From: Escherichia phage CMSTMSU
Strand: one strand, 5' to 3'
Sequence record: MH494197.1
Length of the DNA stretch: 64,000 nt
Part shown: positions 3,182-20,608 of the stretch, piece by piece
How positions within the stretch are numbered: position 1 is the stretch's first letter
Layout: the number at the start of each line of letters is the position of its first letter
Program-made: the position numbers and the translations under genes
Notes under the pieces: generated by a model
The model's database searches: none
Seen by the model: the letters and a program-made list of their open reading frames with translations, nothing else
What the model was told of the DNA's origin: nothing

Positions 3182-3186
3182 TAAAA

Positions 3187-3210
3187 AGGAGCCAATGGCT
3201 CCTTTTTCTT
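3187..3210. terminator. Rho-independent terminator between convergent genes (bidirectional)
   Basis: Hairpin AGGAGCC-AAT-GGCTCCT followed by TTTTTC; A-run on the other side. Confidence 0.6.
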
Positions 3211-4302
3211 TATACCCCAATTAGTGGGATACCTGTTATGTTAAGTAGAACAGATGCTTGAAGCTTAACTGACTCACCTGCCGAAAGGTTGTTTACTATA
3301 CCATCGACGCGGAACCCTAAGTTTTTATTAGAGTTGAGAGAGTTAATCACCCAGTTTTCGTAATCCGCTTTTGTAATACCATTCGGATTTGGGAGAGTTG
3401 GATCAACATCATTAATTACCATAGAAACATCCCAATTCGGGCGACTACTTGTAATTACATCCTTGATTGATTCTAGTTGTGTAATGCGACGTGGATCTGG
3501 AATCTGACTTGCACCAATTGAACCGAAAAATGTACCTTGGTTATCAACATAGAACTGACCTTTAATGAAAAATGTTTTGAATTATACGGAAGAGAAACAA
3601 TTTCACCTGATGAATCACTAACTTCACGAATCATAATTTTCAATTCATAAAAATAGTTACTACCAAATTCAAACACACCAGTACCATTTGTGAATGTTGT
3701 CCAGTTATTTGAATCAACCTGTGAAGTACCACCCATATTGAAGTACGCTAATGGCTTAGTACTGTTACTTTGTGTAAATTCAATATATTTCTTACCTGTA
3801 TCATAGTTGATATCAAGTAGTGTTGAGTACTCTTTATTTTCTGGACGAGATGTTTGAATTTCACGCCATTCTTTATTTTTCATTAGGACACGAAGGAATC
3901 ACCATTACTGGTAAGAACCATACGACCCATAATACTATTTTCACCATCTGGTACTGTGTTGAAAATTGAAATCATTGGGATAGATGCCCAGTCAGCTTCA
4001 GATGCAGTATCTACTGGCTGACGAGCATTATCAACTAATGCAAGAAGTAGTTCGCCAGTGTTGCCAGTATTTCTGTACCAAATCTGACCATTAACGTTAC
4101 CACGAGGTGCAGTAGCTCCACTGAAGTTCTCAACCAAGTGGAGGAAGTTTTCGTTCCATGCTTGACCGTAACCAACTTTATTTCGACCTGCAAAGTTTAA
4201 CGGTACTGGGTTACTACCGTTGGTTTGGTCCTAATATTACGTTATTTGGAATGGTAGCATAAACGCTACCATTACTTCTATAAATTGTATAACTTACACT
4301 CA
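3210..4302 (-). CDS. Structural protein (tail/baseplate-associated?), frame broken into at least 4 pieces
   Basis: Track ORFs 3210..3422, 3473..3883 and 3883..4137 plus N-terminus MSVSYTIYRSNGSVYATIPNN with RBS AAGGTGA at 4302 join across single-base frame changes. Confidence 0.35.
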
Positions 4303-4311
4303 TATCATCAC

Positions 4312-4923
4312 CTTATTATTGTAGTTGGACACGAACTGTGTATTTGATTTGCAAAACACGGTTAGCACTTTTCTCAACTGGGTGAAAAATAATATGGGTA
4401 AGTGGAATACCGCTATCACCATTTGTATATAAACCCAATTCGTCAAATACATATGTCCCATCCATGCTAGTACCAGAGCTAACACCTTGGTCAGATGGCT
4501 CACCTAAACCTAATGTGCAAATACAGACGATATCAGTGTAAGCTTGGCACGGAATGTGAACAGTTGTAATGTTGTTATATTGTGAATCAATACCAGCAGA
4601 GATACGTGGGTTGATTTTTTCAGATAAGTCTGAGAATATAGACCACCGAAAGAAGTAACGCGTGGTTTCTTGTATGTGATACGACCAGTACTCAAAACTA
4701 CTGTTCCACCATTACCAAAACGCATCTCACTAATAGATCCAATAGGAATACCAGTACTATCTTGATTATAAGCCAACGCATTAGCAATAGCAGTACTCAT
4801 ATTTTCAGGGTGAATTGCGTTTGATTTATCCAAAACGATTTTTGGTTAGATGGATCAGTAACGTCAGTAATTAGTACATGACCCTTAACAAATAGTTTTG
4901 GTTGTTCTGTTTCTAATTTCATT
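4312..4923 (-). CDS. Hypothetical structural protein (~200 aa), frameshifted
   Basis: ATG at 4923 (MKLETEQPKLFVKGHV) with RBS AGGA; continues through ORF 4510..4833 and a further frame to a stop near 4312. Confidence 0.35.
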
Positions 4924-4966
4924 TCTAATCCTTAGTAGTTAATTAAAATTTGTTCTAACTTACCAG

Positions 4967-5428
4967 CTAAACTTTTTGTACATCAGATGGATACTTGCTA
5001 ATGTAATCACGGTCAATACCGACTTTCAGATAGGTAAAGTTTCCGGTTAAGGTTTCAGCGAATGTACCAGTTGTACCTTGTTCTCTAATAAGGTCACCGC
5101 CATTTGGGTTAAGAATGACATTATCAGTAAATTCAAGATAGAAGTTGCAGCTTTCGGTAAATTTAATTGGGAACCAATCATCGTCAGATGGATTACTTGC
5201 CAGTGTAGCGAGTACGTAAATTCTACCAATGAAGTTACGTAGGGTAAAGGATATTGTATGTAATCCTGTAGTACTACCATAATAGCCGCCACTAGCTAAT
5301 GGTAATGTTTGTTCGTTCCAATGATAATCTAAGTTAGCAGGATACCAGCTATCTGATTCAGGAAATTCTTGCCATGAACCATCTTTAGTTTTTCTTTTGA
5401 AGAGGAAGTCTTTTGATCTTAATGCCAT
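4967..5428 (-). CDS. Hypothetical protein (153 aa), likely virion-associated
   Basis: Intact ORF in the structural block; no motif recognised. Confidence 0.4.
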   Translation of the reverse strand: MALRSKDFLFKRKTKDGSWQEFPESDSWYPANLDYHWNEQTLPLASGGYYGSTTGLHTISFTLRNFIGRIYVLATLASNPSDDDWFPIKFTESCNFYLEFTDNVILNPNGGDLIREQGTTGTFAETLTGNFTYLKVGIDRDYISKYPSDVQKV

Positions 5429-5537
5429 TGTTAAGCCCTTTTAGTAGTGAACTTTCATTTATTTATTAATGGCAACGAAATGTATTTTGTACTGATAAAT
5501 ATTGGTATATGACATTAACTCATACAAGGGAAATATT

Positions 5538-6663
5538 ATGACAATTTCATTCAACAATGGGTCAGGTGGTTCATGTAATAATTCTGGCATCAAAAGTTTA
5601 GTTATTAACGCTGCTGGACATTTAATTGTAACCTATTCCGACAATACAATCCAAGACCTAGGTCTAGTGGTTGGACAAAATGGTGCTAACGGTAGAAACT
5701 TTTATCCAAATGAGATAGGTTTTGAAGTTCCTAATGAACTCTTCCGTGTTGGTGAAGAACTAGGGTGGTGTTATCTTAGTCTTGCAAACGGCACTAGTAC
5801 TTTATATTTTAAATCAAACGATGCCCAAGAAACAATTAGTACTTGGAACCGTGTAGAGTTTGGTAAAGGTGATACTGGTGAAGCTGGTAAACCATTCCAC
5901 ATTGACAGTTCTGGTACGGCGTTTCCAACAACTGGTCTTTTCGATAATTACACATTCTATAATACTGAAGATGGTAAATTATATTTCTATCAAAGCGTAA
6001 CTGCAACATGGAGTGATGGTATTCCTTTCCGTGGTGAACAAGGTCTACGTGGTCGTTTCCATATTGATAGTACTGGTAGTCAATTCCCAAGCATTGATAA
6101 TCTACCACAAGATTATTGCTTCTATAACACGACAGATGGTAATTTGTATTATGTCGATATCGTAACTACATCATCAACCCCAACTAAAGAGTGGAGTGCT
6201 GGTATCTTATTCCGTGGAAAAGACGGTGAAGAAGGTAAGCAAGGTGAACAAGGTATTCAGGGTGAACGGTAAAGATACAGTTGTTATCATCAACACTATT
6301 GATCATTCATGGACTAACGCATTGTTAGTTATTGGTACATGCCCTGCTGGATACCTAGTAACTAATATCGAAGTTGATATTAACCAAGCATATGATGAAC
6401 CAGTAAATGAAATGTTTGTACGTTTCGGTGGTGAAGCACAAGAAGATATTGGTGGTACTGTAATTGCACCTGTTGATTATTTCGATATCAACCGCAAAAT
6501 GCGTTACATTGTTAACGAAACCAACCACGAAGTATCAAGTAAAGATGAAATCATTTCTTGTGTATTCAATGATTCCGTAAACAACAGTTCATTTGGTGAA
6601 ATGAAGATCGTTTGTACTTTATCATGGCAAGCACCTATTCAGCCTATTCAAGATAACATTTAA
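5538..6663 (+). CDS. Fibre-like protein with three tandem ~55-aa modules each ending in a short collagen-like Gly-X-Y run; one frameshift near 6270
   Basis: Repeats FHIDSxGxxFP...FYNTxDGxLY...WSxGIxFRG followed by GKGDTGEAGKP, RGEQGLRGR and RGKDGEEGKQGEQGIQGE. C-terminal domain continues in ORF 6196..6663. Confidence 0.5.
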
Positions 6664-6705
6664 AGAGGGTTGATAAATGGCAGTTTTTCCAATTTAGAAG
6701 GGACC

Positions 6706-8770
6706 ATGATGCCAACATTCAAGTTGGGTAAACGTGGTGCTTCTATTAATTTTGTAAACGATTCTGTCGCAATCAAAGACTTTTAGGCGAAACGTTCCTA
6801 CCTGTTAAGGTGGGAACTCCTAATGACGATGATTCCGCAGTAAACGTTAGGTATCTTGAAGATAACCCAAATGCTTTATTTGGCGTACTTCCACCAACAA
6901 ATGACATTGGTAAAAATAACAACACTTATTTTCAAGTTGATTCTGAGGGTATTGTTGATATCTTTGCAAAACAAATGATGTTTGGGTAAAATCATTATAC
7001 ATTAATAAAAATGTCCTTTCCAGTGTTAACGGTGCTGATTATATCGGACTTATTACTGGAGGAACACTTCAACAGGCACAGTTTTACATAACACCAGAAG
7101 AGTTTGGTGCAAAGGTGATGGCATCACTGATGACACGGCGGCGTTAACGCATGTGCAGTTTATGCTAAAGAACACAAAATCCAAATTCAAGCTGGTGGTA
7201 ATTATCGTATCAGAACTGCTGTTTATTTGAATGATATTCAATGGTTTGGTGGTACAATCACTGGTAACGGTGGCACAATGGTATCGGTACTGAATAGTAC
7301 AATCCAACAAGCAACATTAACAGGATGTTATTTAAAATTCTTTGGTGGTAATGGTAAATTTTATTTTAATAAATTTATTAATATTACAAGTACTGCTGCA
7401 TTTCTAATGCAAGGTATGACTGAATCAGGTACTATCGACTTCTGCTTTAATGAAATGACACAATGTAAGTACGGTGTTCTTCAGCAAGGCACTGGTGAAA
7501 AATGACAGTTGGGCGTTATTCATACAACCACATCCATGATATATATGGTGATGCAATTGAATTGAACGTAGTCAACTCACATTACCCAGACGGATTTGTA
7601 ATAGAAGGCAACTTGATTGAAAACGTAGATGGTACAAATGCACCAATTCCTCTTTCAAACTGGGGTATTGGTATCGGTGTTGCAGGTTCTGGTCCTTATG
7701 ATGTGAATGCTGATGATTCACAATATGTAAAAAATTCGTTATAAAAATAACCGCTTGTACAATGTCCGTCAATGTATTCACGTTGAGTTGGGTAAAGACT
7801 TTAAAATTCTCAATAATGAAGTTTATCCATCAACGTTGGTATCAATTGGTACTGGTTTGACAACCGCTGGTGTAATTACTTATGGTTCTGTTGATTTTAT
7901 TATTGATGGCCTATCTGGGCATCTATTAAATGATCCATCAGTAACTAACCGTATGGTTTCTATTAACTGGGGCGTAACATCTGGTAAATTTGCTGGTCCT
8001 CCACGAAACTTTAAATTATGTAATCTCCACATTCCTGAGTCGTCTATTATTGTGTATACTTCAGGCTCTGATAATTGGCTAAATACTACTGAACTTTCTA
8101 ATATTACATGTAGTAGAATTCAATGGCGTGGATTGCCGTCATCTTCCAAGTTTAATAATATCAGTACTAAAGAACTTGATGTTATTGGACAACACCTTGC
8201 AACTGAAGGTGAAGGAGGGGCTTATATACTCGCTCTAAATATACATATACCAACTGGACTAATTGTGTTGTTCAAGATGATTGTAACATATCAAAATATA
8301 GTTTCTCAAGAATGTATGTTGACCGTATTGACCAATCATCTAATAACTTTAAAGTAACCACTGCAATTGATGGAACGGGTCATCGTGGACCTGTAGTAAT
8401 ACCTGTAGTTGAACAGTATTACGTGCCTTATGATGTTTTTCCGGTGGGAGATATTTCCCAACAGGAACAATTATCCATAAACAATCAGGTGGAAAATTTA
8501 TTGTTACAGTAGGTGGTTCTTTCTTTGGTCGATATGACACAATTAGACAAACAGTTGCAGGACAAACTTATATCGAAGCATTGGGTGTATCATGGGGTGA
8601 TAATCAATATGCTAAAGCTGCTGGAACCGAAATCCTAATCACAGGAGCAGGGGAAAATGGCGAAGATTTAAAACATATATCACTAGAGCAGTTTATGTTG
8701 TTAATAATGCGTATCGTATCGATATTGCCGATCCGATTGTTACTGCTACCGCAGCAGGGCATTATTGAAA
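6706..8770 (+). CDS. Tailspike / tail fibre with pectate-lyase-3-type beta-helix (putative polysaccharide depolymerase), frameshifted
   Basis: Translation around 7090-7150 gives ITPEEFGAKGDGITDDTAAL, the signature start of pectate_lyase_3 tailspikes. N-terminal module MMPTFKLGKRGAS is shared with the gene at 8850. Track pieces 7227..7505, 7502..7744, 7755..8357, 8312..8512. Confidence 0.55.
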
Positions 8771-8849
8771 GCTGCTCAACCAATAACATATATCACCCTA
8801 TCTTAAAGGAGATTATAAAAATGGCAGTTTTTCTAATTTAGAAGGAACC

Positions 8850-9715
8850 ATGAAGAAGACCTTCATACTTGGTAAAAATGGTGCACAAATTGCCACTAAT
8901 GGTAATGTTGTTCAAATCCAGAACTACACGGGTACACAACTTCTTCCTGTTTCAGCAGGTGACCCAACCGCAAATACACACTTGGTTACATTGGGTTATT
9001 TGAATACACATAGCGGTGGTGGTGGCGGTTCCGGTATTTTACGTGGAACTATTGCACCATCTGAATCAATCGGTGTAGATGGTGACGCTTACTTCTTAGT
9101 TGACAGTACTAATATTATTCAGATCTATATTAAAGACCTTGGTGTTTGGAAGCCTCTCCAAAGCACAACTCCGTACTGATAGTTCTTACGTTACTACTGA
9201 AATCGTTCCTGTATCGGCATTTACATTAGTTCACGGAACAACAGATCAATATACTTATTCTTTACCTGAATCAGTACATGGTCGTGGTCCAGATATTATG
9301 GTTCAGCTACAGGGTGATCCCGGTAACATCCCACTTGACACTGTATTCCAAACTAACGTCACTGTGAGTGGTATTGGTGACATTACGATTGATGTTATTG
9401 GTCAAATTACTGAATACACAAGTGTCAAAGTCAACATCATAGGAGCAACAACAATGACAGTACCTTATAGTAAATTAATTAATATAGCAGATTGGGTAGC
9501 ATCTGGTGATGATTACACCATTACTGTTCCAGCGTCAGAACATAACCAAACACCTGACAATTTGTATATTTCTATATATTCAAATAAAACACCGCAGTAC
9601 AGCAGCATCACCATTTGAACTGGTAATAACCGAAACTCAAATTGATGCAAGTGGTAATGTTACATTCACTTCTGATGAAGCGTTTAGTGGTAAAATAGTA
9701 ATTTCCGGTAAATAA
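8850..9715 (+). CDS. Short tail fibre-like protein with shared N-terminal module and poly-Gly linker, two frameshifts
   Basis: MKKTFILGKNGAQ parallels the 6706 gene start; GGGGGSG linker; continues in ORFs 9100..9618 and 9506..9715. Confidence 0.45.
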
Positions 9716-9721
9716 AAAATA

Positions 9722-9756
9722 ATCCAGACTGCGTTCCATCGAGTCTGGATTTTTAT
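9722..9756 (+). terminator. Rho-independent terminator
   Basis: Hairpin TCCAGACT...AGTCTGGA followed by TTTTT. Confidence 0.6.
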
Positions 9757-9765
9757 ATTAATAAC

Positions 9766-9786
9766 TAAATATATGTATATTAACAA
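9766..9786 (+). promoter_or_regulatory. Conserved 21-nt promoter-like motif TAAATATATGTATATTAACAA, 46 nt upstream of the fibre A start
   Basis: Near-identical copy at 14840..14860 with identical spacing to the fibre B ATG. Confidence 0.4.
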
Positions 9787-9829
9787 GGTCAAATGTATTT
9801 TATGCTTTTGCCTATTTGGAGGGAACTAA

Positions 9830-12800
9830 ATGTACTCGATTAAAACAGATCTAGATATAACTGGTGGTGCAACGGTTGGTAAAGATCTTCTTGTGAAAGG
9901 CGATGCAGTATTCAATAAAAATCTAACAGTTAATGGAACTGTAACTTTTGCTGACGCTGTATTCACTGCAATTGAAGCAGGAACTGTAGACATTTCATCT
10001 ACACTAGATGTTGCTGGTAAAGCATCATTGAATGGTGGAATTGAAGTTCATGGTAATTCCGTAATTGGTAATTTGCCTGTTGGCTCTGATACTGCAACGA
10101 TTAATTCTAATGCACAATTCCAAAGCCCAGTATCAATGGCAGGTAACCTAACACAAACCGCTGGCACTGCTGTACTAAAAGATACCCAAGTGGCATCAAT
10201 GGATGTTCTTGGAACTTCTTCATTTAAAGGTAATATTACTGCTGAAACTGGCACTACCGCAGCATTTGACAAAATAACTGCAACTGATGCAACATTCACA
10301 AACACTGCAACTACTGATATCACATCAACTGGAACTGCAAACTTTAAAGATGTGAATATTTCCGGTACACTAGGTGGAACATTTAGTCTATCTGATGTTA
10401 ATGCAACAACTCTAACTGTTTCTGGTTTAACCAGTCTACAAGGTGGTGTTACATTAGGTTCCAACATTACTGGTGTGAATAGTAGTGCAAACTTCCGTGA
10501 TATTAAAATTGGTTCCAATGCTGCAAACACTAACTACCGTTTGAGCTTTAACTATTCTGCTCCAAGTCTTCGCCCAACTGTAATTCTACAGAACGAAATC
10601 CAATCAGAATTGATGTCTCCAGCTACCCTAAGTGTATTGAAAACTGCATCTTTTGGTGATTCGTCATTATCCACTTTTGGTATTACTGGTAATGGTCTAA
10701 ACAAACTAGATTACCTAACAGTATCTGGTAACTCTGTTCAAGATCCAGCAACTCCACTATTACAAGTAACTTCAGGTAAAACTAAAGTTCATGATTTCGA
10801 AGTAACAGGAACTGCAACTATTCCTAACATTGAAAGTACTGGTACTGCTAATTTTAATAACATCAACGTATCTGGTACACTCGGCGGTACTTTCAGTCTT
10901 GATGATATTGAAGCAAACACTCTAACTGTTTCTGGATTAACTAGCCTTGTTGGTGGTGTAACTTTAGGTGCTGATATTTCCGGTGCTAATAGTACTGCTA
11001 ATTTTAAAGCAGTAAGTTTAGGACAAAACGCAGCCGATGCTAACGTTAAGTATGGTTTTGCTTATTCTGCCCGGTGCTCGTCCAACTGTAATTCTACAAA
11101 ATGAAATTCAGTCTGAACTAGTATCTCCAGCAGTACTAAATGTACAAAAACTGCTACCTTTGGTGATGCATCTCTTGCAACCTATGGTATCACAGGTAAC
11201 GGTCTAAACAAACTAGATTATCTATCTATTACTGGTAATGGTACACAAAGTCCAGCTACCCCACAACTACAAGTAGCTGGTAAATCAGTACTAAATGATG
11301 TTGAATTCACTGGTACTGTAACTGGTCTAACTGTTGATGTGAGTGGACAAGATCTAACTCCTAAATCAGTAGTTGCTGCTGAAGCAATCAAAGGTCAAAC
11401 CCTTGAATCAGTTGGTCAAACCACCGTAGGAACTAACCTACAAGTTGGTGGAACTGCTAATGTTGTTGGTGCACTAACTGGTACTGCTGCTACCTTCACT
11501 GGTGATGTAAGTGCTGCTAAAGGTACTTTCAGTGGTGATGTTAGCGTTACTGGTCAAACTGTAACTGTACGTGATTTAGTAGTAACTGGTACAACTACTG
11601 GTGTAACTGCCCAAGCTGATGTTGATGGTCTTGATATCGCCCCAAATAAAGTTGATGTTACAACAACACTATCTGTTGCTGGGGACACTACTTTAGCTGG
11701 CCTAACTGCTAGTTCAGTAACCAGTACTGGTGATGTTACTGGTGCGTCTGTATCTGGTAATACAGTAACTGCGGCTGGTGCACTATCTGGTGGTTCTCTT
11801 GCAGTAACTGGTGCTGGTTCTATGGCTTCACTAACTGTTCCAAGTATTACTGGTGACACTACTTTTGCTAATAACGTAACTATTACTGGAACACTAACTC
11901 CGAGTAGTATAGATTTAAGCACTACTGATGTAAGTGCTGCTTCTTTAACAACTACTGGTAACGTAACTGTTGGTGGTTCTCTTGCAGTAACTGGTGCTAT
12001 TGATTTGTCTGCTGCTGATGTAGTAACAAAATCAGTTAGTGCAACTAACCCAAGTACATTTGGTGTAATTAATGCATCTTCTGTTGTCGCAACTGGTGAC
12101 GTTTCAGGTGGCACTCTAACTACTACTGGTGCAGCGAAAGTAGGAACACTAACTAGTACTGGTGTAGTATCTGGTTCGCGTTTGTCTTCTGGTACTGCAA
12201 CAATCTCAACTTCTGTAACAGTTCCAACTTTACAAGCTGAAGCTGCTGGTGCTGGTACACTAAATCTAGCAAGTAATGTTGTCGCGGCAAAGATCTAACT
12301 GTCACTGGTGTATTCAAACCTGAAGGTGGTCTTGACCTAACAACTGTTGATATTACTGCAAACTCACTAACTACTACTGCTGATGTTAATGTTGGTGGAA
12401 ACTTAGTAGTTGATGGTACTTTTGACCTAAGTGCTGCTGATGTGTCTGTGAAATCTCTTGCAAGTGCAGAGACAATTACAAGTGCTGGTGTTATTACCGT
12501 TACCGATTCAACCAATACTAGTTCGTTACCTAAAATTACTTCAACTGATGCAACACTCTTTACAGTAAATGCAGGTACTATTAATGCAACTGGCAACAGT
12601 GTACTACAAAGTGTATCAGCTACTCAAGTAACTGCAACTAGTGCTGAATTGACTGGTGTTGGTCTTGGTCTTCAAGTCGATAATGATGCAAACGTTGGTG
12701 GTGCATTATCTGTTGGTGGAATCGCAACTGTTGGTTCTTTAACAACAACTGCTGCTTCTCTTAATATTGCAAAAATACTGCAATCACTGGTGATTTAGCT

Positions 12801-14759
12801 GTATCTGGCACACTAACTGCTGGTTCAATCGACCTAAGCAATACTGATGTAACCGTTAAATCTCTTGATTCACTAGGTAACGCACACATTGCTGGTGACC
12901 TAACTGTAGATGGTGCATTCGACTTAAGTGCAACTAACCTTGTAGCTGCAAGTCTAGCAAGTACTGGTTCTACTACTGTTGGAACTGATCTAGTACTAAC
13001 AACTGGTGTTGTGACTGGTAGCCCAGCTATCTCTGGTAATACAACAATCGGTGGAACTCTTGGTGTAACTGGTGCTGTTAACCTAACTGATATTGTTAAT
13101 ATCGGTAAGAAAGTAACAGTGAGTACTGGTGGTATTCAGGTAGTTGATGGTGGTATCAATACTAACACAATTAACGTTTCTGGTGCTTCTACTCTAGCAG
13201 GAACTTCCATTACTGGAACTTTAGGTGTAACTGGTGCTTCTACTCTAGCAGGTGTATCTGCGACATCACTAACAGTTTCTGGTGACAGTACTGTTCAGAA
13301 ACTAACTGTCCAAGGTGAATTGATCCCACAAGGTGGTCTTGACCTAAGCGGTGCAGACATTACTGCTAATAGTCTAACTACTGCAACAACTATCAATGCA
13401 ACTGGCCTAAGTACTCTAAGTGGTGGTGTTAGTACTTCTACTGTGACTGCATCTGGTCTAGCAACTGTTGGAAGTTTAACTTCTACTGCAAACGCATCAG
13501 TTGGTGGCAATTTGGGTGTAACTGGAACTCTAGATGTTACTGGTGCTACTACTGTATCTTCACTAACAGCTACTGGTGCAGTGAAAACTGGCACAACCCT
13601 AACTGTTGGTACTCCAGTTGGTGAACAACCTGAAACTGTACAGATCATTCCAGATACTTATATTGCTGGTAAATTGCGTGTAATCGGCGGTATTAACGCT
13701 GAAATCGACGTAAGTGGTCAAACACTAGAACCATATGCAATTGAAGCTGCTGCAACACTATCTGCTGTTGGTAACATTACTTCTGGTGCAACCATCGTTT
13801 CTAAAGCTGCAACAATTGGTGATGTTGGTTCACAAAACAACAACCTAACTGTTAATGGTAACGTAGTAACTAATGGTGACTTCACCGTTACTGGTGTACT
13901 AAATGCACAATTGAACCAAGCAGATTCCGATGTAGCTGTTAAATCTTTAACTGCAACTAATAACGTTGCGGCTGGTACTTCAATCACTGCTGGAACATCC
14001 ATCACTGCATCAGGCTTACTAAAAGGTAATTCGTTAGAAGTCACCACTACTGGTTCATTTGGTGGTGCAGTAACTATGTCAAGTGGTGCAAACATCACTG
14101 GTACTGTTGGTATCACTGCTGGTGACCTAACAGTAGGTGGTAATATCTCTGCAACTGGGACTGCTGGATTCGGTGCAACAACCGTTTCTACCATTACAAC
14201 ATCAGGTTTAGCTACACTTGCAAGTGCATCTGTAACTGGTGCTCTAACTGTAGGTGGTACATTAACTGCAAATGGTAACACTGTGATTGGTGATGCTGCT
14301 GCTGATACTTTAACTGTAAATGCAACATCGACATTTAAAGAGAACGCAACATTTGATAAGAACCTAACAGTGACTGGTTCTATTAACACCACCACTGCAA
14401 ACTTCACCACAAACAACATGGTAACTAAGAAATATTCTGTTATCCCTGCTAGTGTTACTGCTTCTACTGCTGCTGTAGGTGGTACTTGGACACCAGATGG
14501 TACTACTAACGTATATCGCTTAACTCTTGACCAAAGTGTTACAATGGATTCCATCGCGGGTCTAATTGGTAGTGGTCAAGCATGTTCAGTGTATATCTAT
14601 GTAACTCCATCTGTTGCTGATACTACTTTCACCTTCGGTGGTGCATACTCTGTAGTTTCTGGTACAGTAAGTGCTGTAGTTGGTCAAACAAGTATTATCC
14701 AAGTAATCTATGATGGTTTCAGTACTGTGTTTGATACCTTCGTTGCACAACGTGTATAA
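9830..14759 (+). CDS. Giant repeat-rich fibre protein A (~1640 aa), reading frame broken at about 11100, 12300 and 12800
   Basis: Track ORFs 9830..11104, 11339..12298, 12442..12798 and 13011..14759 all carry V/T/G/S/A-rich short repeats (xTVxGxxTLxG). RBS GGAGGGA. N- and C-termini are paralogous to fibre B. Confidence 0.6.
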
Positions 14760-14778
14760 CATTTTAAATTAATAATTA

Positions 14779-14806
14779 AAGCCAACTAAAATAGTTGGCT
14801 TTTTCT
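14779..14806 (+). terminator. Rho-independent terminator
   Basis: AAGCCAACT-AAAAT-AGTTGGCTT followed by TTTTCTTT. Confidence 0.6.
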
Positions 14807-14839
14807 TTGTATTAGATAATAGTGTTTTGTGAATTAAAC

Positions 14840-14860
14840 TAAATATAAGTATATTAACAA
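14840..14860 (+). promoter_or_regulatory. Second copy of the conserved promoter-like motif (TAAATATAAGTATATTAACAA)
   Basis: One mismatch to 9766..9786; 46 nt upstream of the ATG at 14906. Confidence 0.4.
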
Positions 14861-14905
14861 AAGATGGGTTATGAATATATAGTTCATCGTTATAGGAGGG
14901 ACTCT

Positions 14906-17900
14906 ATGTACTCGATTAAAACGGATCTTGATGTATCTGGTAATTCCACGGTAGGTAAGGATCTTTTGGTCAAAGGTAATGCAGTATTCAGTAATGACCT
15001 AACGGTTAATGGGGAAGTGTCTTTTGCTAACGCAGTATTCACTGCAATTACCGCTGGTTCTGTGAATGTCACAGGTGCATTGGATGTTGCTGGTAAGGCA
15101 ACCTTATCCGGTGGTGCTGATGTTTCAGGTGCTGCGACATTTGCAGGAAACATTACTGCTGCTGACGGCACAACTGCAAAATTTGATAACTTAGAAGCTA
15201 ATTCAGGATCATTTAATTCTGTTGAATCAACTGATATTACTTCAACTGGCACAGCAACTTTTAAAGATGTAAACATTTCTGGTACACTTGGTGGTACTTT
15301 TAATCTTTCTGATATTAATGCTACAACACTTAATGTGTCTGGTGCTTCAGCACTAACTGGTTCAGTCACATTGGGTGCAAATATCACTGGTCTTGCAAGT
15401 ACTGCAAACTTCCGTGATATTCGTATCGGGCCTAATGAAGAAGGTCAAGCATATAGACTAAACTTTGGTTACACCGTTCGGACAACGACCAACCGTTCTT
15501 CTACAGAACGAAGTTCAATCCGAACTAATGTCTCCTGCTAAGTTGAATGTTCTACAAACTGCAACATTTGGTGATTCTTCACTTTCAACTTACGGTATTA
15601 CAGGTAATGGTTTAAACAAATTAGATTATGTAACTATTTCTGGTAACGCAATTCAATCACCAACCACTCCTTTACTTGAAGTAACTAAAGGTAAAACTAA
15701 AGTTGTTGATTTAGAAGTGACTGGCGTAGCAACTATTCCTAATATCGAAAGTTCTGGTACTGCAAACTTTAACAACATCAACGTATCTGGTACTATTGGT
15801 GGTAGTTTTGATTTAGATGATATCCAAGCAACAACATTATCAGTATCCGGTGCTTCAGCACTAACTGGTGCAGTTACATTGGGTGCAAACATCACTGGTC
15901 TAGCAAGTACTGCAACATTCAAAGCAATCAATTTGGGTCAAAATACCGCTGATGCTAACGTTAAGCTAGGTTTTGCATATACTGCACCTAGTGCACGTCC
16001 AACAGTCTTGTTAGCAAACGAAGTTCAATCTGAACTAATGTCTCCTGCTAAGTTGAACGTTCTACAAACTGCAACCTTCGGTTCTGCTGCACTATCTACC
16101 TATGGTATTACTGGTAATGGTCTAAACAAATTAGATTATCTAACAATTACTGGTAACGCAACACAAAACCCTGCTACTCCACAACTTCAAGTTGGTGGTA
16201 AAGCAATTCTTAATGATGTTGAATTTACAGGTACTGTAACTGGCCTAACTGTTGATGTGAGTGGACAAGATCTAACTCCTAAATCAGTAGTTGCTGCTGA
16301 AGCAATCAAAGGTCAAACTCTTGAATCAGTTGGTCAAACAACTGTAGGTTCATCTCTACAAGTTGGTGGTACTGCAACTGTTACTGGTGCATTATCTGCT
16401 GCCGCTGGTACTTTCAGTGGTGATGTTAGTGGTTCTAAAGGTATCTTCAGTGATAGCGTATCCGGTACAAGTGCAACCTTTACTGGGGATGTTAGCGGTG
16501 ATAACGCAACCTTTAGTGGCGATTTATCTGCTGTAGCTGGCACTTTCAGTGGTGATGTAACCGTAACTGGTCAAACAATCACTGTTAAAGACTTGGTAGT
16601 AACTGGAACTTCAACTGGTGTAACTGCAATCGCTGACGTTGACGGTCTTGATATTGCTCCAAACAAAGTTGATGTTACAACAACTCTATCTGTTGCTGGT
16701 GAATCAACTCTTGCTGGTGTTACAGCAACTTCAATCAATAGTACTGGTGCAATTGCAGGTACTGCAATTTCTGGCTCTACTATTACAGCAACTGGTGAAA
16801 TTTCTGGTGCATCATCTGTAGTAACTGGTCTTTCTAAATCTGGTAGCGTTGAAACTGGTGCTCTAAAGGCATCTTCTGTTGAAACTGCAATCATTAGCAA
16901 CACTGCTGGTGTGTCAATAACAAACAACACTTCAATTGCAGGTAATCTATCTGTAACTGGAACTGTTACCCCGTGCAATTGACCTAAGTACTACTGATAT
17001 TGATGCTAAGTCTCTAACAACTACTGAAGGTGCTAACATTGGTGGTGACCTAGTTGTTGCAGGTACAGTTGATCTAAGTGCTGCTGACGTTGCTGTTAAA
17101 TCTCTAACCAGTACTGGTGCAGTTATTAGTTCTGAAGGTACAGTAAGTAGTGTTCTACCTAAACTTTCCAGTACTGAAGCTAATATTACCACAGTAACTG
17201 CAACCACTGCAAATGCTACCACACTAAATGTAACTGGTACATCAACTCTAGCTGGTGTTAACGCTTCTGGTGCTATTACTTCTGCAACTAACATTACCGC
17301 TACTGGTGTATTAAAGGTGCATCTGTTGAAACTGCGTCAATCAGCAATGCTGATGGTGTAGCAATTAACAATAACACTACAATCACTGGTAATTTGGACG
17401 TATCTGGGACATTGACCCGTGCAATTGACCTAAGTACTACTGATATTAGTTCTAAGTCTCTAACCACAACTGAAGGTGCTACAATTGGTGGCGATCTTGT
17501 GGTAGCAGGTACTGTTGATCTAAGTGCTGCTGATGTGTCGGTGAAATCTCTTGCAAGTGCAGAGACAATTACAAGTGCTGGTGTTATTACAGTTTCGGAT
17601 ACAGTGAATTCTAGCACTCTACCAAAACTAATTACTACTGATGCAACTATTGGTGCTGTCCATGCAGCTACTATTGAAACAACTGGTTCAAGTACACTAA
17701 AACAAGTATCTGCTACTGAAGTAACAGCTACAAGTATTGTACTAAATTCAGTTGGTGAAGGTTTACGTGTTGACAATAATGCAAACATTAATGGTATATT
17801 AAGTGTTAATAATATTACTTCTACCAATGATACTATTGCAATTGCGAAAAGTGCTGCTATTACTGGTGATCTGACCGTATCTGGAACTGTTACCCCGGTG

Positions 17901-20608
17901 CAATTGACCTAAGTACTACCGATATTAGTTCTAAATCCTAAGTACTACTGAAGGTGCTACAATTGGTGGTGACCTAGTTGTTAATGGTTCAATTGATTTA
18001 AGTTCTTCCAATGTTTCAGCAATTACCCTTGCTAGTTCTGGTAATACTACCGTTGGTGGTAACCTAGTACTAACAACTGGTGTTGTGACTGGCAGCCCAT
18101 CTGTATCTGGTAACCTTTCAGTTGCAGGTACTGCGGCAGTAACTGGTGCAACTACCTAACTGATATCGTAAATATCGGTAAGAAAGTAACTGTAAGCACT
18201 GGTGGTATTCAAGTAGTTGCAGGTGGTATTAATACCGACGCTATATTAGTATCCGGTGATACAACTTTAAACAACACTACTGTAAACACTACCTTAAATG
18301 TAACTGGTCAAAGTACAGTTGCTGCACTAAGTGCTGCATCTTTGAATGTATCTGGTGATAGTACTGTTCAAAACTAACAGTTGAAGGTGAATTGGTTCCA
18401 CAAGGTGGTATCGACCTAACTGGTGCAGATATTTCTGCTAATAGTCTTGCAACTGCTTCAACAATCACTGCAACTGGACTAAGCACACTAAGTGGTGGTG
18501 TAAGTACTACTAATGTTACTGCATCTGGTACAGTGAATGCTGGTAGTTTGGATGTTACTAACAACGCAACCGTTGGTGGTAATTTGGGTGTAACTGGTTC
18601 ATTAACTTCTGGACCATTGAGTGTAACAGGCATTGCGAATATTACTGGTGTAACAACTGTTGGTTCATTGGTTTCCGGTGCTGTATCTGGTAGTACTGGT
18701 ACATTTAGTTCAACATTAGGTGTAACTGGTGCAGCTACATTTGACAATGACGTAACTGTTGAAGGTGTATTCACCCCAGCAGGTGGTTTAGACCTAACAA
18801 CTTCTGATATTACAGCTAAGAGTTTGTCAGTATCTGAAACTATTCACTCTGATGGTGCAGCTTCCTTTGGTGGTAACACAACAGTAGGTGGTACATTGGG
18901 TGTAACTGGTGCAGTAACTGCTCCATCGGCAACCCTAAGCGGTACTGGTACTGCACTAGCAGTAACTAATAATGCAACTATTGGTGGTACATTGGGTGTA
19001 ACTGGTCAAGCAACACTTGGTTCTATAGTAACTTCTGGTGTATCTGCAACAAGTGGCTCTTTCAGTACTACTCTTGGCGTTACTGGTGCTGCGACATTTG
19101 GAAACGATGTAACTGTAGTTGGAACACTAACTCCGGTAGCTTAGATCTAACTGGTGCAGATATCTCTGCTAAAACACTAACTCTATCTGAAACATTAAAT
19201 GCGACAGGTAATACTACCCTTGGTGGAACATTAGGTGTAACTGGTTTAGCAACAATTGGTGGAACACTAACGTCTGGTGCAGTAACTGCTCCATCTGCAA
19301 CCTTGAATGGTTCAGGAACTGGTCTAGCAGTAACTAACAACGCAACCGTTGGTGGTACATTAGGTGTAGTTGGTCAAACAACACTAGGTTCTGTTAAAAC
19401 TGGTGCAACTCTAACAGTTGGTACACCATTAGGTGAGCAGCCTGAAACTGTACAGATTATGCCAGACACTTATATTGCTGGTAAACTACGTGTTGAGGGT
19501 GGTATTAACGCAGATATCGATGTTGGTGGACAAACACTAGAACCGTTTGCAGTAATAGCATCTGATTCTTTATCTTCTGCTGGTAATATTACTGCTGGTG
19601 CGGCAATTATTTCAAGTTCTGCAACAATTGGTGAAGTCGGTTCACAAAACAACAACCTAATCGTTAATGGTAACGTTGTAAACAACGGTAACTTCACTGT
19701 TACTGGTGTACTAAATGCACAATTGAACCAAGCAGATTCCGATGTAGCTGTTAAGTCTTTGACTGCAACTAACAACGTAGCTGCTGGAACCACATTAAGT
19801 GCAGGTACTGCAATTACTGCTGGTACTTCCATCACTGCAACTGGATTACTTAAAGGTAATACTTTATTACTACTACTGGTTCATTTGGTGGTGCAGTAAC
19901 TATGTCAAGTGGTGCAAACATCACTGGTACAGTGGGTATTACTGCTGGTAACCTAACAGTGGGTGGTGATATCTCTGCAACTGGCACTGCTGGATTCGGT
20001 GCAACAACCGTTTCTACAATTACAACATCAGGTTTGGCTACACTTGCAAGTACATCCGTTACTGGTAACGCAACAGTAGGTGGAACACTAGCAGTAACAG
20101 GAGCACTAACTGCGAATGGTAACGTAACATTAGGTGACGCAGCGGCTGACGTTCTAACCGTTAATGCAACTTCATCATTTAAAGAAAATGCTGTGTTTGA
20201 TAAGGCAGTAACAGTAACTGGTGAACTAACCACTACTAATGCTAACTTAACTACTACAACAGTAACTACCAAAAGTATGATGTAATCCCAACTCAAGTTA
20301 CATCATCAGTAATTGCTCCAACCGGAACATGGACTCCAGATGGTACAAGTAACGTGTACTTCATCACTCTAGACCAAGATACCACGTTGGCTCCAATTAC
20401 TGGCCTAATTGGTGGCGGTAAAGCTGCATCAGTATACATCTATGTTAAACAAGATACAACTGGTAACAGAAACTTTACAACTGATGGTACTTATGCTGTT
20501 GTTGATGGTGAACTAAACAAAACTGCTGGTAGCGTGACCATTTACCAAGTAATTTATGATGGTGTAAGTCCAGTTACTGATTTGTTCATTGCACAACGTA
20601 CTGCTTAA
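14906..20608 (+). CDS. Giant repeat-rich fibre protein B (~1900 aa), several frame breaks
   Basis: Starts MYSIKTDLDVSG with RBS TAGGAGGGA. Pieces 15465..16982, 17394..17912, 18392..19144, 19303..19899, 19902..20285 and 20354..20608. Shares long near-identical nucleotide blocks with fibre A. Confidence 0.6.

What the first reader, a model, noticed from the sequence alone, without database searches (positions are those of the whole stretch)
9830..20608. Two tandem giant fibre genes (~1640 and ~1900 aa) built as mosaics of shared near-identical blocks
Both genes start MYSIKTDLD... and end with related C-terminal domains (...TWTPDGT.NVY...IYQVIYDG...). Between these ends they share long blocks that are almost identical at the nucleotide level (for example 12423-12510 vs 17516-17603; 13000-13160 vs 18070-18240; 13865-14035 vs 19680-19860), interspersed with divergent segments. 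This is the pattern expected for modular recombination between paralogous fibres, which is a route to host-range switching, and it is also a likely source of assembly collapse.
Basis: seen in the sequence. Interest (0 to 1): 0.6.

Follow-up and report, generated by a model that had tools for sequence, protein, structure and literature searches.

The report
Two paralogous jumbo-phage tail fibre genes
Two neighbouring, related genes for very long tail fibres of a giant E. coli phage exchange pieces with each other; they are real and already annotated in sister phages, but in this sequence both are broken by sequencing errors.

Summary
The window comes from an Asteriusvirus-type jumbo coliphage, 99% identical to fEgEco12, WPEC5 and EC.P1. 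Two tandem paralogous fibre genes lie at 9830-14759 and 14906-20608. As given, neither is an open reading frame: 15 small deletions (23 bases) break them. These deletions are part of 63 window-specific deletions in 22.8 kb. They sit in homopolymers and at 15 of 18 CCWGG (Dcm) sites, which is a nanopore-type error signature. Seven close relatives have both genes intact (about 1640 and 1900-1906 aa), and an eighth also carries the pair, so the duplication is not an assembly artefact.

The paralogues are colinear but only 71% identical in DNA. The "near-identical blocks" are short tracts of 83-96% identity, yet they exceed chance (exact runs of 74, 59 and 56 nt; at most 51 in 1000 shuffles). They are lineage-specific. 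One tract of about 200 nt is polymorphic among 97-99% identical isolates, with gene 2 as the apparent donor, which indicates recent gene conversion. One isolate carries a single gene1/gene2 hybrid. Another has a foreign 4.2-kb central part in gene 2.

Recombination between the paralogues is therefore supported. The link to host range is untested. This is a known kind of tail-fibre evolution in already annotated genes, of modest interest.

The parts
9723..9754 (+). Hairpin (TCCAGACT...AGTCTGGA) followed by T5; terminator-like end of the upstream virion-protein gene
   Evidence: Read directly. The scan did not list it because its loop is longer than 8 nt.
9763..9786 (+). Conserved upstream element AACTAAATATATGTATATTAACAA; candidate promoter of gene 1
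   Evidence: There are only two copies in the 64-kb window, one before each fibre gene. The core AACTAAATATA is invariant upstream of the 121Q gene and both Turkey5 fibre genes. Its function is inferred.
9830..14759 (+). Fibre gene 1, orthologue of fEgEco12 g317 (1644 aa when intact). In the window it is broken by deletions at about 11073 (-2), 11146 (-1), 12289 (-1) and 12771 (-1).
   Evidence: PHROG 4549 'tail fiber protein', E = 1e-182.
10277..11323 (+). Two tandem copies of a 170-aa module (aa 150-335 and 322-499) containing RPTVILQNE.QSE...GITGNGLNKLDY
   Evidence: (D3, D20). The phiTE long tail fibre shares this module. T5_2 and JP4 have three copies.
11180..11534 (+). High-identity tract with gene 2 (16098-16452; 86% over 355 nt). 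It contains the 74-nt exact run.
   Evidence: The paralogues group together here to the exclusion of 121Q and Turkey5.
12415..12497 (+). High-identity tract with gene 2 (17508-17590; 96.4% over 83 nt)
14016..14224 (+). Recent gene-conversion tract (gene-1 nt ~4192-4400), 92-93% identical to gene 2 at ~19846-20056. BF17 and Turkey3 (and partly WPEC3) lack it.
   Evidence: It lies inside the broader 83% tract 13584-14240 / 19396-20066.
14424..14756 (+). C-terminal tip domain of gene 1, 'type 1'. It is a beta-sandwich and lacks the family's QDxTG motif.
   Evidence: AF2 model with pLDDT 91.9; alignment A2; distribution; fold matches.
14778..14811 (+). Intrinsic-terminator-like hairpin (11-bp stem) plus T-run between the two genes
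14837..14860 (+). Second copy of the conserved upstream element AACTAAATATAAGTATATTAACAA, followed by the Shine-Dalgarno sequence AGGAGGG at 14894-14900
14906..20608 (+). Fibre gene 2, orthologue of fEgEco12 g316 (1906 aa when intact). In the window it is broken by 11 deletion events totalling 18 nt (15480, 16973, 17313, 17419, 17897, 17937, 18155, 18370, 19135, 19867, 20271).
   Evidence: PHROG 4549, E = 4e-203. The true start is ATG 14906, not the upstream ATG 14864.
16364..16568 (+). Run of diverged 33-nt (11-aa) repeats, GTFSGDVSxxx; gene 1 has a shorter run at 11446-11551
   Evidence: D7; offsets 11 and 33. Tandem Repeats Finder did not detect them.
16800..18090 (+). Three copies of a 150-160-aa module (aa 635-760, 785-910, 964-1063), up to 93% aa identity between copies; gene 1 has two to three weaker copies
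   Evidence: (D4, D5, D18). Coordinates are approximate.
18640..19400 (+). Stretch of about 250 aa specific to gene 2 (aa ~1250-1500), built of ~120-aa repeats (NNATVGGTLGVTG...). Gene 1 lacks it; 121Q has part of it.
   Evidence: Coordinates are approximate.
20275..20605 (+). C-terminal tip domain of gene 2, 'type 2', orthologous to the tip of the single 121Q/phAPEC6 fibre
   Evidence: (0.81-0.85 nt identity to 121Q)

Best explanation
The region holds two real, adjacent, separately signalled genes for very long fibre proteins of the virion of an Asteriusvirus-type jumbo coliphage. Each gene has its own upstream hairpin, conserved upstream element and Shine-Dalgarno sequence.

Origin. The two genes are old tandem paralogues. 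Gene 2 (1906 aa) corresponds to the single fibre gene of 121Q, PBECO4 and phAPEC6. Gene 1 (1644 aa) is the extra copy and carries a distinct C-terminal tip.

Architecture. Each protein has:
- a shared N-terminus (MYSIKTDLD...), inferred to be the attachment to the virion;
- a very long repetitive shaft built of modules of 170 aa, about 150 aa, about 120 aa and 11 aa, whose copy number varies between phages;
- a beta-sandwich tip of about 105 aa.

Ongoing exchange. Because the paralogues are colinear and partly similar, they recombine in three ways:
- short gene-conversion tracts homogenise some segments in one lineage only;
- unequal crossing-over can fuse the two genes into one hybrid;
- central parts are swapped with diverged alleles from other phages.

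Frame breaks. The broken reading frames in this window are not biological. They are systematic single-molecule (nanopore-type) errors at homopolymers and at Dcm-methylated CCWGG sites, found throughout the window.

Inferred, not shown:
- both proteins form homotrimeric fibres on the same virion;
- the two tips give two binding specificities;
- the fibres are roughly 105-125 nm long, scaled from the phiTE homologue (793 aa, predicted 512 A).
For: Identity of the phage and of the genes:
- The region is 99% identical to fEgEco12, WPEC5 and EC.P1, where two intact CDS of 4935 and 5721 nt are annotated as tail fibre proteins.
- Eight close relatives from five or more countries carry the pair. It is intact in seven; in vB_Ec-M-J gene 1 is split. 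The more distant Turkey5 has it as well.
- 121Q, phAPEC6, JP4 and UE-S1 have one gene at the same genomic position.
- The phAPEC6 orthologue gp256 (180 kDa) was detected in virions by mass spectrometry (PMC7247149).
- Both proteins match PHROG 4549 'tail fiber protein'. The only PDB sequence match is the phiTE long tail fibre 9CUY chain g, E = 1e-28 to 3e-31, covering shaft and tip.

Frame breaks are technical:
- All 63 indels over 22.8 kb are deletions in the window, in every gene.
- 41 lie in homopolymers and 15 at CCWGG. 15 of 18 CCWGG sites and 13 of 13 six-base homopolymers are affected.
- Restoring the missing bases gives intact proteins of 1644 and 1906 aa.

Gene conversion:
- Identity is heterogeneous, including at synonymous positions.
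- Exact shared runs far exceed the shuffles and the orthologue control.
- Relationships are incongruent along the gene and the blocks are lineage-specific.
- Differences between the window's gene 1 and that of BF17/Turkey3 are concentrated at nt 4050-4500. There the window's gene 1 matches its own gene 2 at 0.92-0.93, while BF17 gene 1 against BF17 gene 2 is 0.52-0.62.

Other recombinant forms:
- TH47 has a single in-frame hybrid of 1652 aa.
- vB_Ec-M-J gene 2 is a mosaic.

Tip domain: confident AF2 model with pLDDT 91.9, and 117 viral structural matches, mostly C-termini of tail fibres.

Separate expression signals for each gene.
Against: - There is no direct evidence that both proteins are assembled into virions in this clade. 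The mass-spectrometry data are for the single-gene phage phAPEC6.
- Where the fibres sit is unknown. They could be at the baseplate or be the 'hairy' fibres on sheath and capsid described for 121Q and phAPEC6.
- No receptor is known.
- The shaft fold could not be modelled (pLDDT 48).
- Alignments inside repetitive shafts are uncertain, so tract boundaries are approximate.
- The direction of conversion rests on few outgroups. The BF17-type segment has no close relative in the set (best 69%), so it could instead be a foreign insert in BF17 and Turkey3.
- Seven of the 63 deletions are not in the two classic error contexts. They include a 4-nt deletion inside gene 2 at 19867, and a real mutation cannot be excluded for these.
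- TH47 is an UNVERIFIED record and its hybrid may be an assembly collapse.
Confidence: 0.85

Rival explanations
1. The tandem pair is an assembly artefact: a single fibre gene was wrongly duplicated, or the locus was otherwise misassembled.
For: The locus is highly repetitive. One related record, TH47, shows a single gene.
Against: - The two copies are only 71% identical and differ in length by 262 aa, with distinct tips. An assembler does not create such copies.
- The same arrangement is found in 8 close relatives sequenced independently in different countries, and in Turkey5.
- The window's error profile indicates a long-read assembly, which would span the locus.
Confidence: 0.02
2. The frame breaks are biological: the two genes are decaying pseudogenes, or they are expressed by programmed frameshifting or phase variation at homopolymers.
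For: Both genes are interrupted many times. Some breaks are at homopolymers, which can act as phase-variation tracts. vB_Ec-M-J gene 1 is also split, by a 14-nt deletion.
Against: - The same kind of deletion occurs about once per 350 nt across all 22.8 kb compared, including in thymidylate synthase and baseplate genes. Every event is a deletion.
- The deletions hit 15 of 18 Dcm sites and 13 of 13 six-base homopolymers.
- 99%-identical relatives are intact.
- This is a basecalling signature, not the result of selection or regulation.
Confidence: 0.04
3. The blocks of high similarity reflect only stronger purifying selection on some structural segments of two anciently diverged paralogues. No recombination took place between them.
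For: Some blocks (for example gene-1 aa 441-520) are also fairly conserved in 121Q (0.78-0.87), as expected for constrained segments.
Against: - Identity is also raised at synonymous positions: identical codons make up 0.83-0.89 of conserved residues in the blocks, against about 0.5-0.65 elsewhere.
- Exact runs of 56-74 nt are never reached in shuffles or in orthologue pairs of equal divergence.
- The same segments are not similar in the Turkey5 pair.
- One block is present in the window/fEgEco12 lineage but absent in BF17 and Turkey3, while gene 2 is unchanged.
Confidence: 0.06
4. The two proteins are not alternative fibres. They are consecutive or co-assembled parts of one fibre, like the T4 proximal (gp34) and distal (gp37) half-fibres, or they form a heterotrimer.
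Against: - Both proteins have homologous N-termini and homologous C-terminal domains. This suggests equivalent rather than complementary positions.
- Many related phages manage with a single gene.
- A hybrid of the two is in frame in TH47.
- No sequence similarity to solved T4-type gp34 structures was found.
Confidence: 0.12

Closest known systems
fEgEco12 g317/g316 (XBS49399, XBS49398) and their orthologues in WPEC5, EC.P1, Ecwhy_1, WPEC3, BF17 (ORF310/311) and Turkey3
   Same: They are the same two genes in the same order and context, 97-99.6% identical in DNA. The BF17 paper mentions them as the longest tail fibre subunit genes (PMC10059673).
   Different: The window copy carries 23 missing bases that break the frames. 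Compared with BF17, Turkey3 and WPEC3, it also differs by a conversion tract of about 200 nt and an 18-nt indel.
Single fibre gene of 121Q (gp571), phAPEC6 (gp256, found in virions by mass spectrometry), PBECO4, JP4 and UE-S1
   Same: It occupies the same genomic position, between the same flanking virion genes. It has the same N-terminus, module types and tip family. Gene 2 shares its tip type at 0.81-0.89 nt identity (PMC7247149).
   Different: These phages have one gene instead of two. Overall DNA identity is only about 69%. Module copy numbers differ: JP4 has three 170-aa modules.
Long tail fibre of Pectobacterium phage phiTE (793 aa; PDB 9CUY/9MJN chain g)
   Same: It is the only solved-structure entry with sequence similarity (E = 1e-28 to 3e-31). 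It shares the 170-aa-type module, the shaft repeats and the C-terminal domain. It is a trimer attached to the baseplate wedge, with a predicted long beta-helical shaft (PMC11972413).
   Different: The phiTE N-terminal anchor (residues 14-171), the only part actually modelled, has no counterpart here. The proteins in the window are 2-2.4 times longer, and phiTE has a single copy.
T4 gp34, the long tail fibre proximal subunit (the name used in the annotations)
   Same: Both are very long, repetitive, presumably trimeric fibre proteins of a myovirus.
Mosaic evolution of tail fibre genes by recombination at conserved motifs (T-even gp37/gp38, P2/Mu/P1 fibres). This precedent is from my own knowledge of the classic literature and was not retrieved here.
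   Same: Blocks of high similarity are interspersed with divergent segments. Segments are exchanged between phages and between paralogous fibre genes. Repeat copy number varies.
   Different: Here the donor and recipient are two tandem paralogues in one jumbo-phage genome. The exchanged tracts seen so far are mainly in the shaft and tip-proximal region, not in the tip itself.

Membership tests
phiTE/CR3/Asteriusvirus-type long fibre family (PHROG 4549) | Significant profile match over the shaft region | tested here: met
   PHROG 4549 'tail fiber protein', E = 1.4e-182 and 4.2e-203, with 8 matched stretches in each protein.
phiTE/CR3/Asteriusvirus-type long fibre family (PHROG 4549) | C-terminal domain of about 105 aa with the motifs (W/Y/F)xPDG..x(V/I)Y, GxGK, QDxTG and Y.G....D....R at the extreme C-terminus | tested here: met
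   Alignment A2 has invariant P, G, Y, Y, Y, G, D and R. The exhaustive search found 19 clusters, nearly all with the domain at the C-terminal end. Gene 2 has all the motifs. Gene 1 lacks QDxTG, so it is a divergent member.
phiTE/CR3/Asteriusvirus-type long fibre family (PHROG 4549) | Component of the virion and trimeric fibre | not testable with these tools
   Only indirect evidence: phAPEC6 gp256 was found in virions by mass spectrometry (PMC7247149), and the phiTE long tail fibre is a trimer in cryo-EM (PMC11972413).
T4 gp34 long tail fibre proximal subunit | Sequence homology to gp34 | tested here: not met
   No hit to any gp34 chain among 177,635 PDB sequences at E <= 1. No Pfam or NCBIfam family.
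T4 gp34 long tail fibre proximal subunit | N-terminus docks on baseplate gp9 and C-terminus joins a knee protein and a distal half-fibre | not testable with these tools
YadA-like / autotransporter adhesin (annotation of homologues in PBECO4 and Yersinia phages) | YadA head, stalk or anchor Pfam domains | tested here: not met
   No Pfam family at E <= 0.1. The only hits are sub-threshold, to bactofilin and MmoB.
Colanic-acid-degrading tailspike (annotation of WPEC5 gene 1) | Match to the colanidase family (PHROG 6117) or to a glycosidase/lyase beta-helix domain | tested here: not met
   The fibre proteins match only PHROG 4549. PHROG 6117 matches the separate upstream gene, the g319 homologue.
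Tandem paralogues evolving by gene conversion (concerted evolution) | Paralogues within one genome are more alike than orthologues between lineages, in discrete tracts | tested here: met
   Window gene 1 against window gene 2 is 0.89-0.93 where window gene 1 against Turkey5 gene 1 is 0.52-0.83 and the Turkey5 pair is 0.47-0.69. The tract at gene-1 nt 4192-4400 is polymorphic among close isolates.
Tandem paralogues evolving by gene conversion (concerted evolution) | The clustering of identity exceeds chance and is also seen at synonymous sites | tested here: met
   Exact runs of 74, 59 and 56 nt, against at most 51 in 1000 shuffles. Identical-codon fraction is 0.83-0.89 in the blocks, against about 0.5-0.65 elsewhere.

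The most novel reading that the evidence does not exclude
The tandem pair, together with its internal repeat modules, acts as a built-in diversification cassette. Frequent gene conversion, unequal crossing-over (two genes becoming one hybrid, and back) and changes in module copy number would remodel fibre length and the region next to the tip. This would be fast enough to be polymorphic among 97-99% identical isolates, and would change which E. coli strains the jumbo phage can infect.
Probability: 0.25. Interest if true: 0.5.

Novelty: new member of a known kind. Interest (0 to 1): 0.3.

Why it matters
For anyone annotating this genome, the main message is practical. Both fibre genes, and many other genes in the window, appear as pseudogenes only because of nanopore-type errors at homopolymers and Dcm sites. 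They need polishing before any interpretation.

Biologically, the locus is a clean natural example of intragenomic recombination between two giant fibre paralogues in jumbo coliphages that are being developed for therapy and biocontrol. The available isolates already contain:
- a polymorphic conversion tract;
- a one-gene hybrid;
- an allele with a foreign central part.

These variants give ready-made material for testing which fibre parts set host range. None of this changes current concepts of tail-fibre evolution.

Tried and rejected
- **Stop-codon reassignment** as the cause of the broken ORFs. Rejected: the breaks are frame shifts, not in-frame stops.
- **Pfam and NCBIfam.** No family for either protein or for the neighbouring genes. 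PF26209, listed for the E. coli-labelled fragment P0001, is not in the local Pfam copy, so I could not name it.
- **Word-indexed protein search.** It returned only 3 and 2 hits and was of little use. The exhaustive search was more informative.
- **AF2 model of the 170-aa shaft module.** It failed (pLDDT 48, pTM 0.22), as expected for one chain of an intertwined trimer. I did not use it for fold search.
- **Tandem Repeats Finder.** It did not detect the diverged 33-nt repeats.
- **A blastp self-comparison script.** It gave no off-diagonal hits. I replaced it with a diagonal identity scan.
- **Other paralogues in the window.** None found outside 9.7-20.7 kb.
- **The upstream element as a general late promoter.** It occurs only before the two fibre genes in this window, so that idea is unsupported here.
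- **121Q as a gene1-N/gene2-C hybrid like TH47.** I considered this. The shared 53-aa N-terminal segment is also present in both Turkey5 genes, so its absence is a derived deletion in gene 2 of the window clade. The idea was dropped.
- **Literature search** for earlier descriptions of conversion between these paralogues. Nothing found.

Full report
**1. What is at the coordinates**

Under the bacterial code, the span 9830-20608 does not contain two giant ORFs.
- Gene 1 falls into four plus-strand ORFs: 9830-11104, 11339-12298, 12442-12798 and 13011-14759.
- Gene 2 falls into seven: 14864/14906-15541, 15465-16982, 17394-17912, 18392-19144, 19303-19899, 19902-20285 and 20354-20608.

Translation in one frame shows that the protein sequence continues in other frames. 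The interruptions are therefore frame shifts, not recoded stop codons.

**2. Source of the window and cause of the breaks**

Megablast places the window in the Asteriusvirus group of jumbo coliphages (350-384 kb).
- The fibre region is 99.1-96.8% identical over its full length to WPEC5, fEgEco12, EC.P1, Ecwhy_1, WPEC3, BF17 and Turkey3.
- The next 19 kb is 98.3-99.1% identical to the same phages.
- In these records the region holds two intact CDS: 4935 or 4917 nt, and 5721 or 5700 nt, equal to 1644/1638 aa and 1906/1899 aa. They are annotated 'long tail fiber proximal subunit', 'tail fiber protein' or 'hypothetical protein'.

I aligned 22.8 kb of the window with fEgEco12. The result was 143 substitutions and 63 internal indels, and every indel is a deletion in the window. 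They occur about once per 350 nt, in every gene and intergenic region.
- 41 of the deletions lie in homopolymers and 15 lie at CCWGG.
- 15 of the 18 CCWGG sites, and all 13 six-base homopolymers, are affected.

This is the known systematic error pattern of nanopore basecalling at homopolymers and Dcm-methylated sites (my own knowledge).

Gene 1 lacks 5 bases in 4 events, and gene 2 lacks 18 bases in 11 events. Restoring them gives uninterrupted proteins of 1644 and 1906 aa.

**3. Is the duplication real?**

Yes.
- Eight close relatives from Finland, Thailand, China, Poland, the Czech Republic and elsewhere carry the pair. It is intact in seven; in vB_Ec-M-J gene 1 is split by a 14-nt deletion.
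- The more distant Turkey5 has a pair of 1628 and 2120 aa.
- A tblastn search with the tip domain finds two copies in 10 of the 65 phage records that have it.
- 121Q, phAPEC6, JP4 and UE-S1 have a single gene of 1827-2129 aa at the same position, between the same flanking virion genes.
- The two copies in the window are only 71% identical in DNA. No assembler would generate them from one gene.

**4. How alike are the two genes?**

They are colinear over their whole length. Gene 2 lacks about 53 aa near the N-terminus and has about 250 extra aa near aa 1250-1500. Nucleotide identity is 71.0% over 4,722 aligned positions. In 40-codon windows it ranges from 0.41 to 0.93.

- 96.2% over 79 nt;
- 80.1% over 161 nt;
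- 91.7% over 108 nt plus 86.0% over 57 nt.

With stringent scoring, the main tracts are:
- 11180-11534 / 16098-16452 (86%, 355 nt);
- 12415-12497 / 17508-17590 (96%, 83 nt);
- 13278-13457 / 18351-18529 (85%);
- 13584-14240 / 19396-20066 (83%, 675 nt).

So 'long, almost identical blocks' is too strong. The clustering of identity is still not chance.
- Exact shared runs reach 74, 59, 56 and 50 nt.
- In 1000 codon shuffles the longest run averaged 26 and never exceeded 51.
- The orthologue pair of window gene 1 and Turkey5 gene 1, which has the same overall identity (71.3%), reaches only 26.
- Within the blocks, identical codons make up 0.83-0.89 of conserved residues, against about 0.5-0.65 elsewhere. 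The excess similarity therefore extends to synonymous positions.

**5. Evidence for recombination**

(a) *Incongruent relationships along the gene.* In the C-terminal 150 aa and at aa 730-820, gene 2 groups with the single 121Q gene (0.69-0.89), while gene 1 is distant from both (0.40-0.63). At gene-1 aa 481-625 and 1321-1465 the two window paralogues group together (0.76-0.94), and 121Q is more distant (0.39-0.81).

(b) *Lineage specificity.* Where the window paralogues are 0.89-0.93 identical, the Turkey5 paralogues are 0.47-0.69. Conversely, the Turkey5 paralogues are 0.90 identical in a segment where the window pair is 0.74. Orthology is preserved elsewhere: window gene 1 against Turkey5 gene 1 is 0.80-0.85 at aa 680-815, and 0.70-0.88 in the tip. 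The duplication therefore predates the split of these lineages, and homogenisation came later and independently.

(c) *A tract that is polymorphic among close isolates.*
- Of the 134 differences between window gene 1 and BF17 gene 1, 87 lie in nt 4051-4500. In long uninterrupted runs the window's state equals its own gene 2.
- At nt 4192-4372 the window pair is 0.92-0.93 identical and the BF17 pair is 0.52-0.62. Window gene 1 against BF17 gene 1 is 0.55-0.64, while window gene 2 against BF17 gene 2 is 0.94-0.98.
- The window-type segment is 93-95% identical to gene 2 of the clade and 80% to 121Q. The BF17-type segment has no close relative in the set.
- The simplest reading is a gene 2 to gene 1 conversion of about 200 nt in the window/fEgEco12/vB_Ec-M-J lineage. 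In window coordinates this is about 14016-14224, copied from about 19846-20056.
- Immediately upstream (nt 4120-4190) the reverse holds: the BF17 and Turkey3 pairs are 0.97 identical and the window pair is 0.82. Such events are therefore recurrent.

(d) *A hybrid gene.* TH47 has a single in-frame gene of 1652 aa. It follows gene 1 up to about nt 4050-4150 and gene 2 thereafter, with the junction inside a high-identity block. Its flanks are 97-99.9% identical to the two-gene clade. It is therefore either a secondary unequal crossover or an assembly collapse; the record is UNVERIFIED.

(e) *Exchange with outside alleles.* Gene 2 of vB_Ec-M-J is 95-100% identical to the window at its first 450 nt and last 1000 nt. 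Its central 4.2 kb is only 47-81% identical, and it is no closer to gene 1, 121Q or JP4.

**6. Anatomy of the proteins**

Both proteins start MYSIKTDLD. Other jumbo-phage fibres begin with a similar motif (P0008). After the N-terminus come:
- two copies of a 170-aa module (RPTV.LQNE.QSE ... GITGNGLNKLDY); Turkey5 gene 2 and JP4 have three;
- a run of 11-aa repeats, longer in gene 2;
- two to three copies of a 150-160-aa module, with three copies in gene 2 reaching 93% aa identity in 40-aa windows;
- repeats of about 120 aa in gene 2 only;
- a conserved pre-tip shaft;
- a C-terminal domain of about 105 aa.

Among close isolates there are in-frame 18-nt indels in the pre-tip shaft.

Database results:
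- Pfam and NCBIfam recognise nothing.
- PHROG 4549 'tail fiber protein' matches strongly.
- The only PDB sequence match is the 793-aa long tail fibre of the flagellotropic myophage phiTE. It covers the module, the shaft and the tip.
- In phiTE cryo-EM that protein is a trimer bound to the baseplate wedge through its N-terminal 171 residues, the only part modelled. The rest is predicted to be a long beta-helix of 512 A (PMC11972413). That N-terminal anchor has no counterpart in the window's proteins.

The tip domain:
- It is rare: 19 clusters among 1.84 billion representatives.
- It is found in 65 phage records. These are Asteriusvirus, the CBB, GAP32, Serratia BF, Erwinia and Yersinia jumbo phages, and phages of about 150 kb of the CR3 type (CR8, POP15).
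- Its AF2 model is confident (pLDDT 91.9, pTM 0.82) and shows a beta-sandwich.
- Foldseek finds 117 viral models at E <= 0.001, mostly C-termini of fibres.
- Gene 1's tip lacks the QDxTG motif present in nearly all other members.
- The tips fall into two types. Type 1 is gene 1 of the window clade and of Turkey5. Type 2 is gene 2 of both, together with all single-gene phages.

The AF2 model of one shaft module was unusable (pLDDT 48).

**7. Expression signals and context**

Each gene is preceded by three elements:
- a hairpin with a T-run (9723-9754 and 14778-14811);
- a conserved element, AACTAAATATA(T/A)GTATATTAACAA, at 9763-9786 and 14837-14860. These are its only two occurrences in the window, and its core is invariant upstream of the 121Q gene and both Turkey5 genes;
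- a GGAGGG Shine-Dalgarno sequence.

The neighbours are tail and baseplate genes: a tail protein, a colanidase-type tailspike and a virion protein upstream, and two virion proteins downstream followed by thymidylate synthase on the other strand.

The phAPEC6 orthologue gp256 (180 kDa) was found in virions by mass spectrometry (PMC7247149). 121Q, phAPEC6 and fEgEco12 virions show baseplate fibres as well as unusual 'hairy' fibres on sheath and capsid (PMC5646251, PMC7247149, PMC13070987). Which of these structures the proteins form is unknown.

**8. Most likely mechanism**

*Shown:*
- two paralogous fibre genes with separate signals;
- a modular repeat architecture;
- two conserved tip types;
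- recurrent conversion tracts between the paralogues;
- hybrid and mosaic alleles in nature;
- frame breaks that are technical.

*Inferred:*
- each protein forms a homotrimeric fibre;
- both use the shared N-terminus for equivalent attachment to the virion;
- the different tips give the two-gene phages a second binding specificity;
- recombination and changes in module number alter fibre length and the region next to the tip;
- the fibres are about 105-125 nm long, scaled from the phiTE homologue.

The host-range consequence is plausible but untested. The conversion tracts seen lie outside the tips, which remain distinct. This looks as if selection keeps two tip types apart while the shafts are free to homogenise.

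**9. Comparison with what is known, and novelty**

The genes are already present and annotated in public genomes, and the BF17 paper mentions them in passing (PMC10059673). I found no description of their paralogous mosaic structure. Mosaicism, domain duplication and exchange between fibre genes are classic features of phage tail fibres (my own knowledge).

The annotation names do not hold up as family assignments:
- 'long tail fiber proximal subunit' (T4 gp34) is not supported by any sequence test here;
- 'colanic acid-degrading protein', 'YadA domain protein', 'autotransporter' and 'flagellar hook-length control protein', given to this gene or its homologues, are misannotations.

I class the finding as a new member of a known kind. 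It is of modest interest, with one practical caveat: this window needs error correction before any gene-level interpretation.

Noticed in passing
whole window; compared in detail over 3860-26580: There are systematic 1-4-nt deletions about once per 350 nt relative to 99%-identical genomes. They hit 15 of 18 CCWGG sites and all six-base homopolymers. They fragment many other genes, for example 5502-6272/6196-6663, 21541-22512/22490-22864 and 23530-24039/23996-24520. The errors at CCWGG imply that the phage DNA carries Dcm 5-methylcytosine, so its cytosines are not replaced by a hypermodified base.
   Followed up: yes
9763-9786 and 14837-14860: A conserved 22-24-nt element, AACTAAATATA(T/A)GTATATTAACAA, occurs only before the two fibre genes in this window. 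It is conserved upstream of the fibre genes of 121Q and Turkey5. It may be a promoter or regulatory site specific to the fibre genes.
   Followed up: partly
L006 (TH47, MT446416) 8001-12959: A single 1652-aa hybrid fibre gene, with the 5' part from gene 1 and the 3' part from gene 2, sits where relatives have two genes. It is either a natural unequal crossover or an assembly collapse in an UNVERIFIED record.
   Followed up: partly
L004 (vB_Ec-M-J, OQ718158) 3001-7921 and 8071-14037: Gene 1 is split into two CDS by a 14-nt deletion. This is either a possible natural loss of gene 1 or a sequencing error. Gene 2 has a 4.2-kb central segment of unknown origin, 47-81% identical to all other alleles examined.
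   Followed up: partly
L013 (Turkey5, PQ471516) 4486-15873: This is a second, divergent lineage with the tandem pair (1628 and 2120 aa). JNE01 probably belongs to it as well. Its flanking genes are the most divergent of all the phages compared (0.64-0.75). The single-gene state of 121Q-type phages may therefore be a secondary loss, or the cassette may move horizontally.
   Followed up: partly
P0023 and P0001 (protein database hits): Fragments 99-100% identical to these phage fibre proteins are deposited as proteins of 'Actinomadura adrarensis' and 'Escherichia coli', on contigs of 1.2-2.2 kb. This is probably phage contamination or carry-over in bacterial assemblies.
   Followed up: no
14424-14756 (gene 1 tip): The tip domain of gene 1 has lost the QDxTG motif that nearly all other members of this rare domain family conserve. 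It has TPSVADTT in its place.
   Followed up: no
public annotations of homologues: The same fibre gene or its homologues are variously annotated as 'colanic acid-degrading protein', 'YadA domain protein', 'autotransporter', 'flagellar hook-length control protein' and 'long tail fiber proximal subunit'. None of these names is supported by the profile searches run here.
   Followed up: partly
10048-10530, 11554-12114, 13718-14554, 17300-17827 and others, minus strand: Long antisense ORFs (up to 278 aa) lie inside the fibre genes. None is annotated in any relative. They are the expected by-product of the Gly/Thr/Ala/Val-rich repetitive coding sequence.
   Followed up: no
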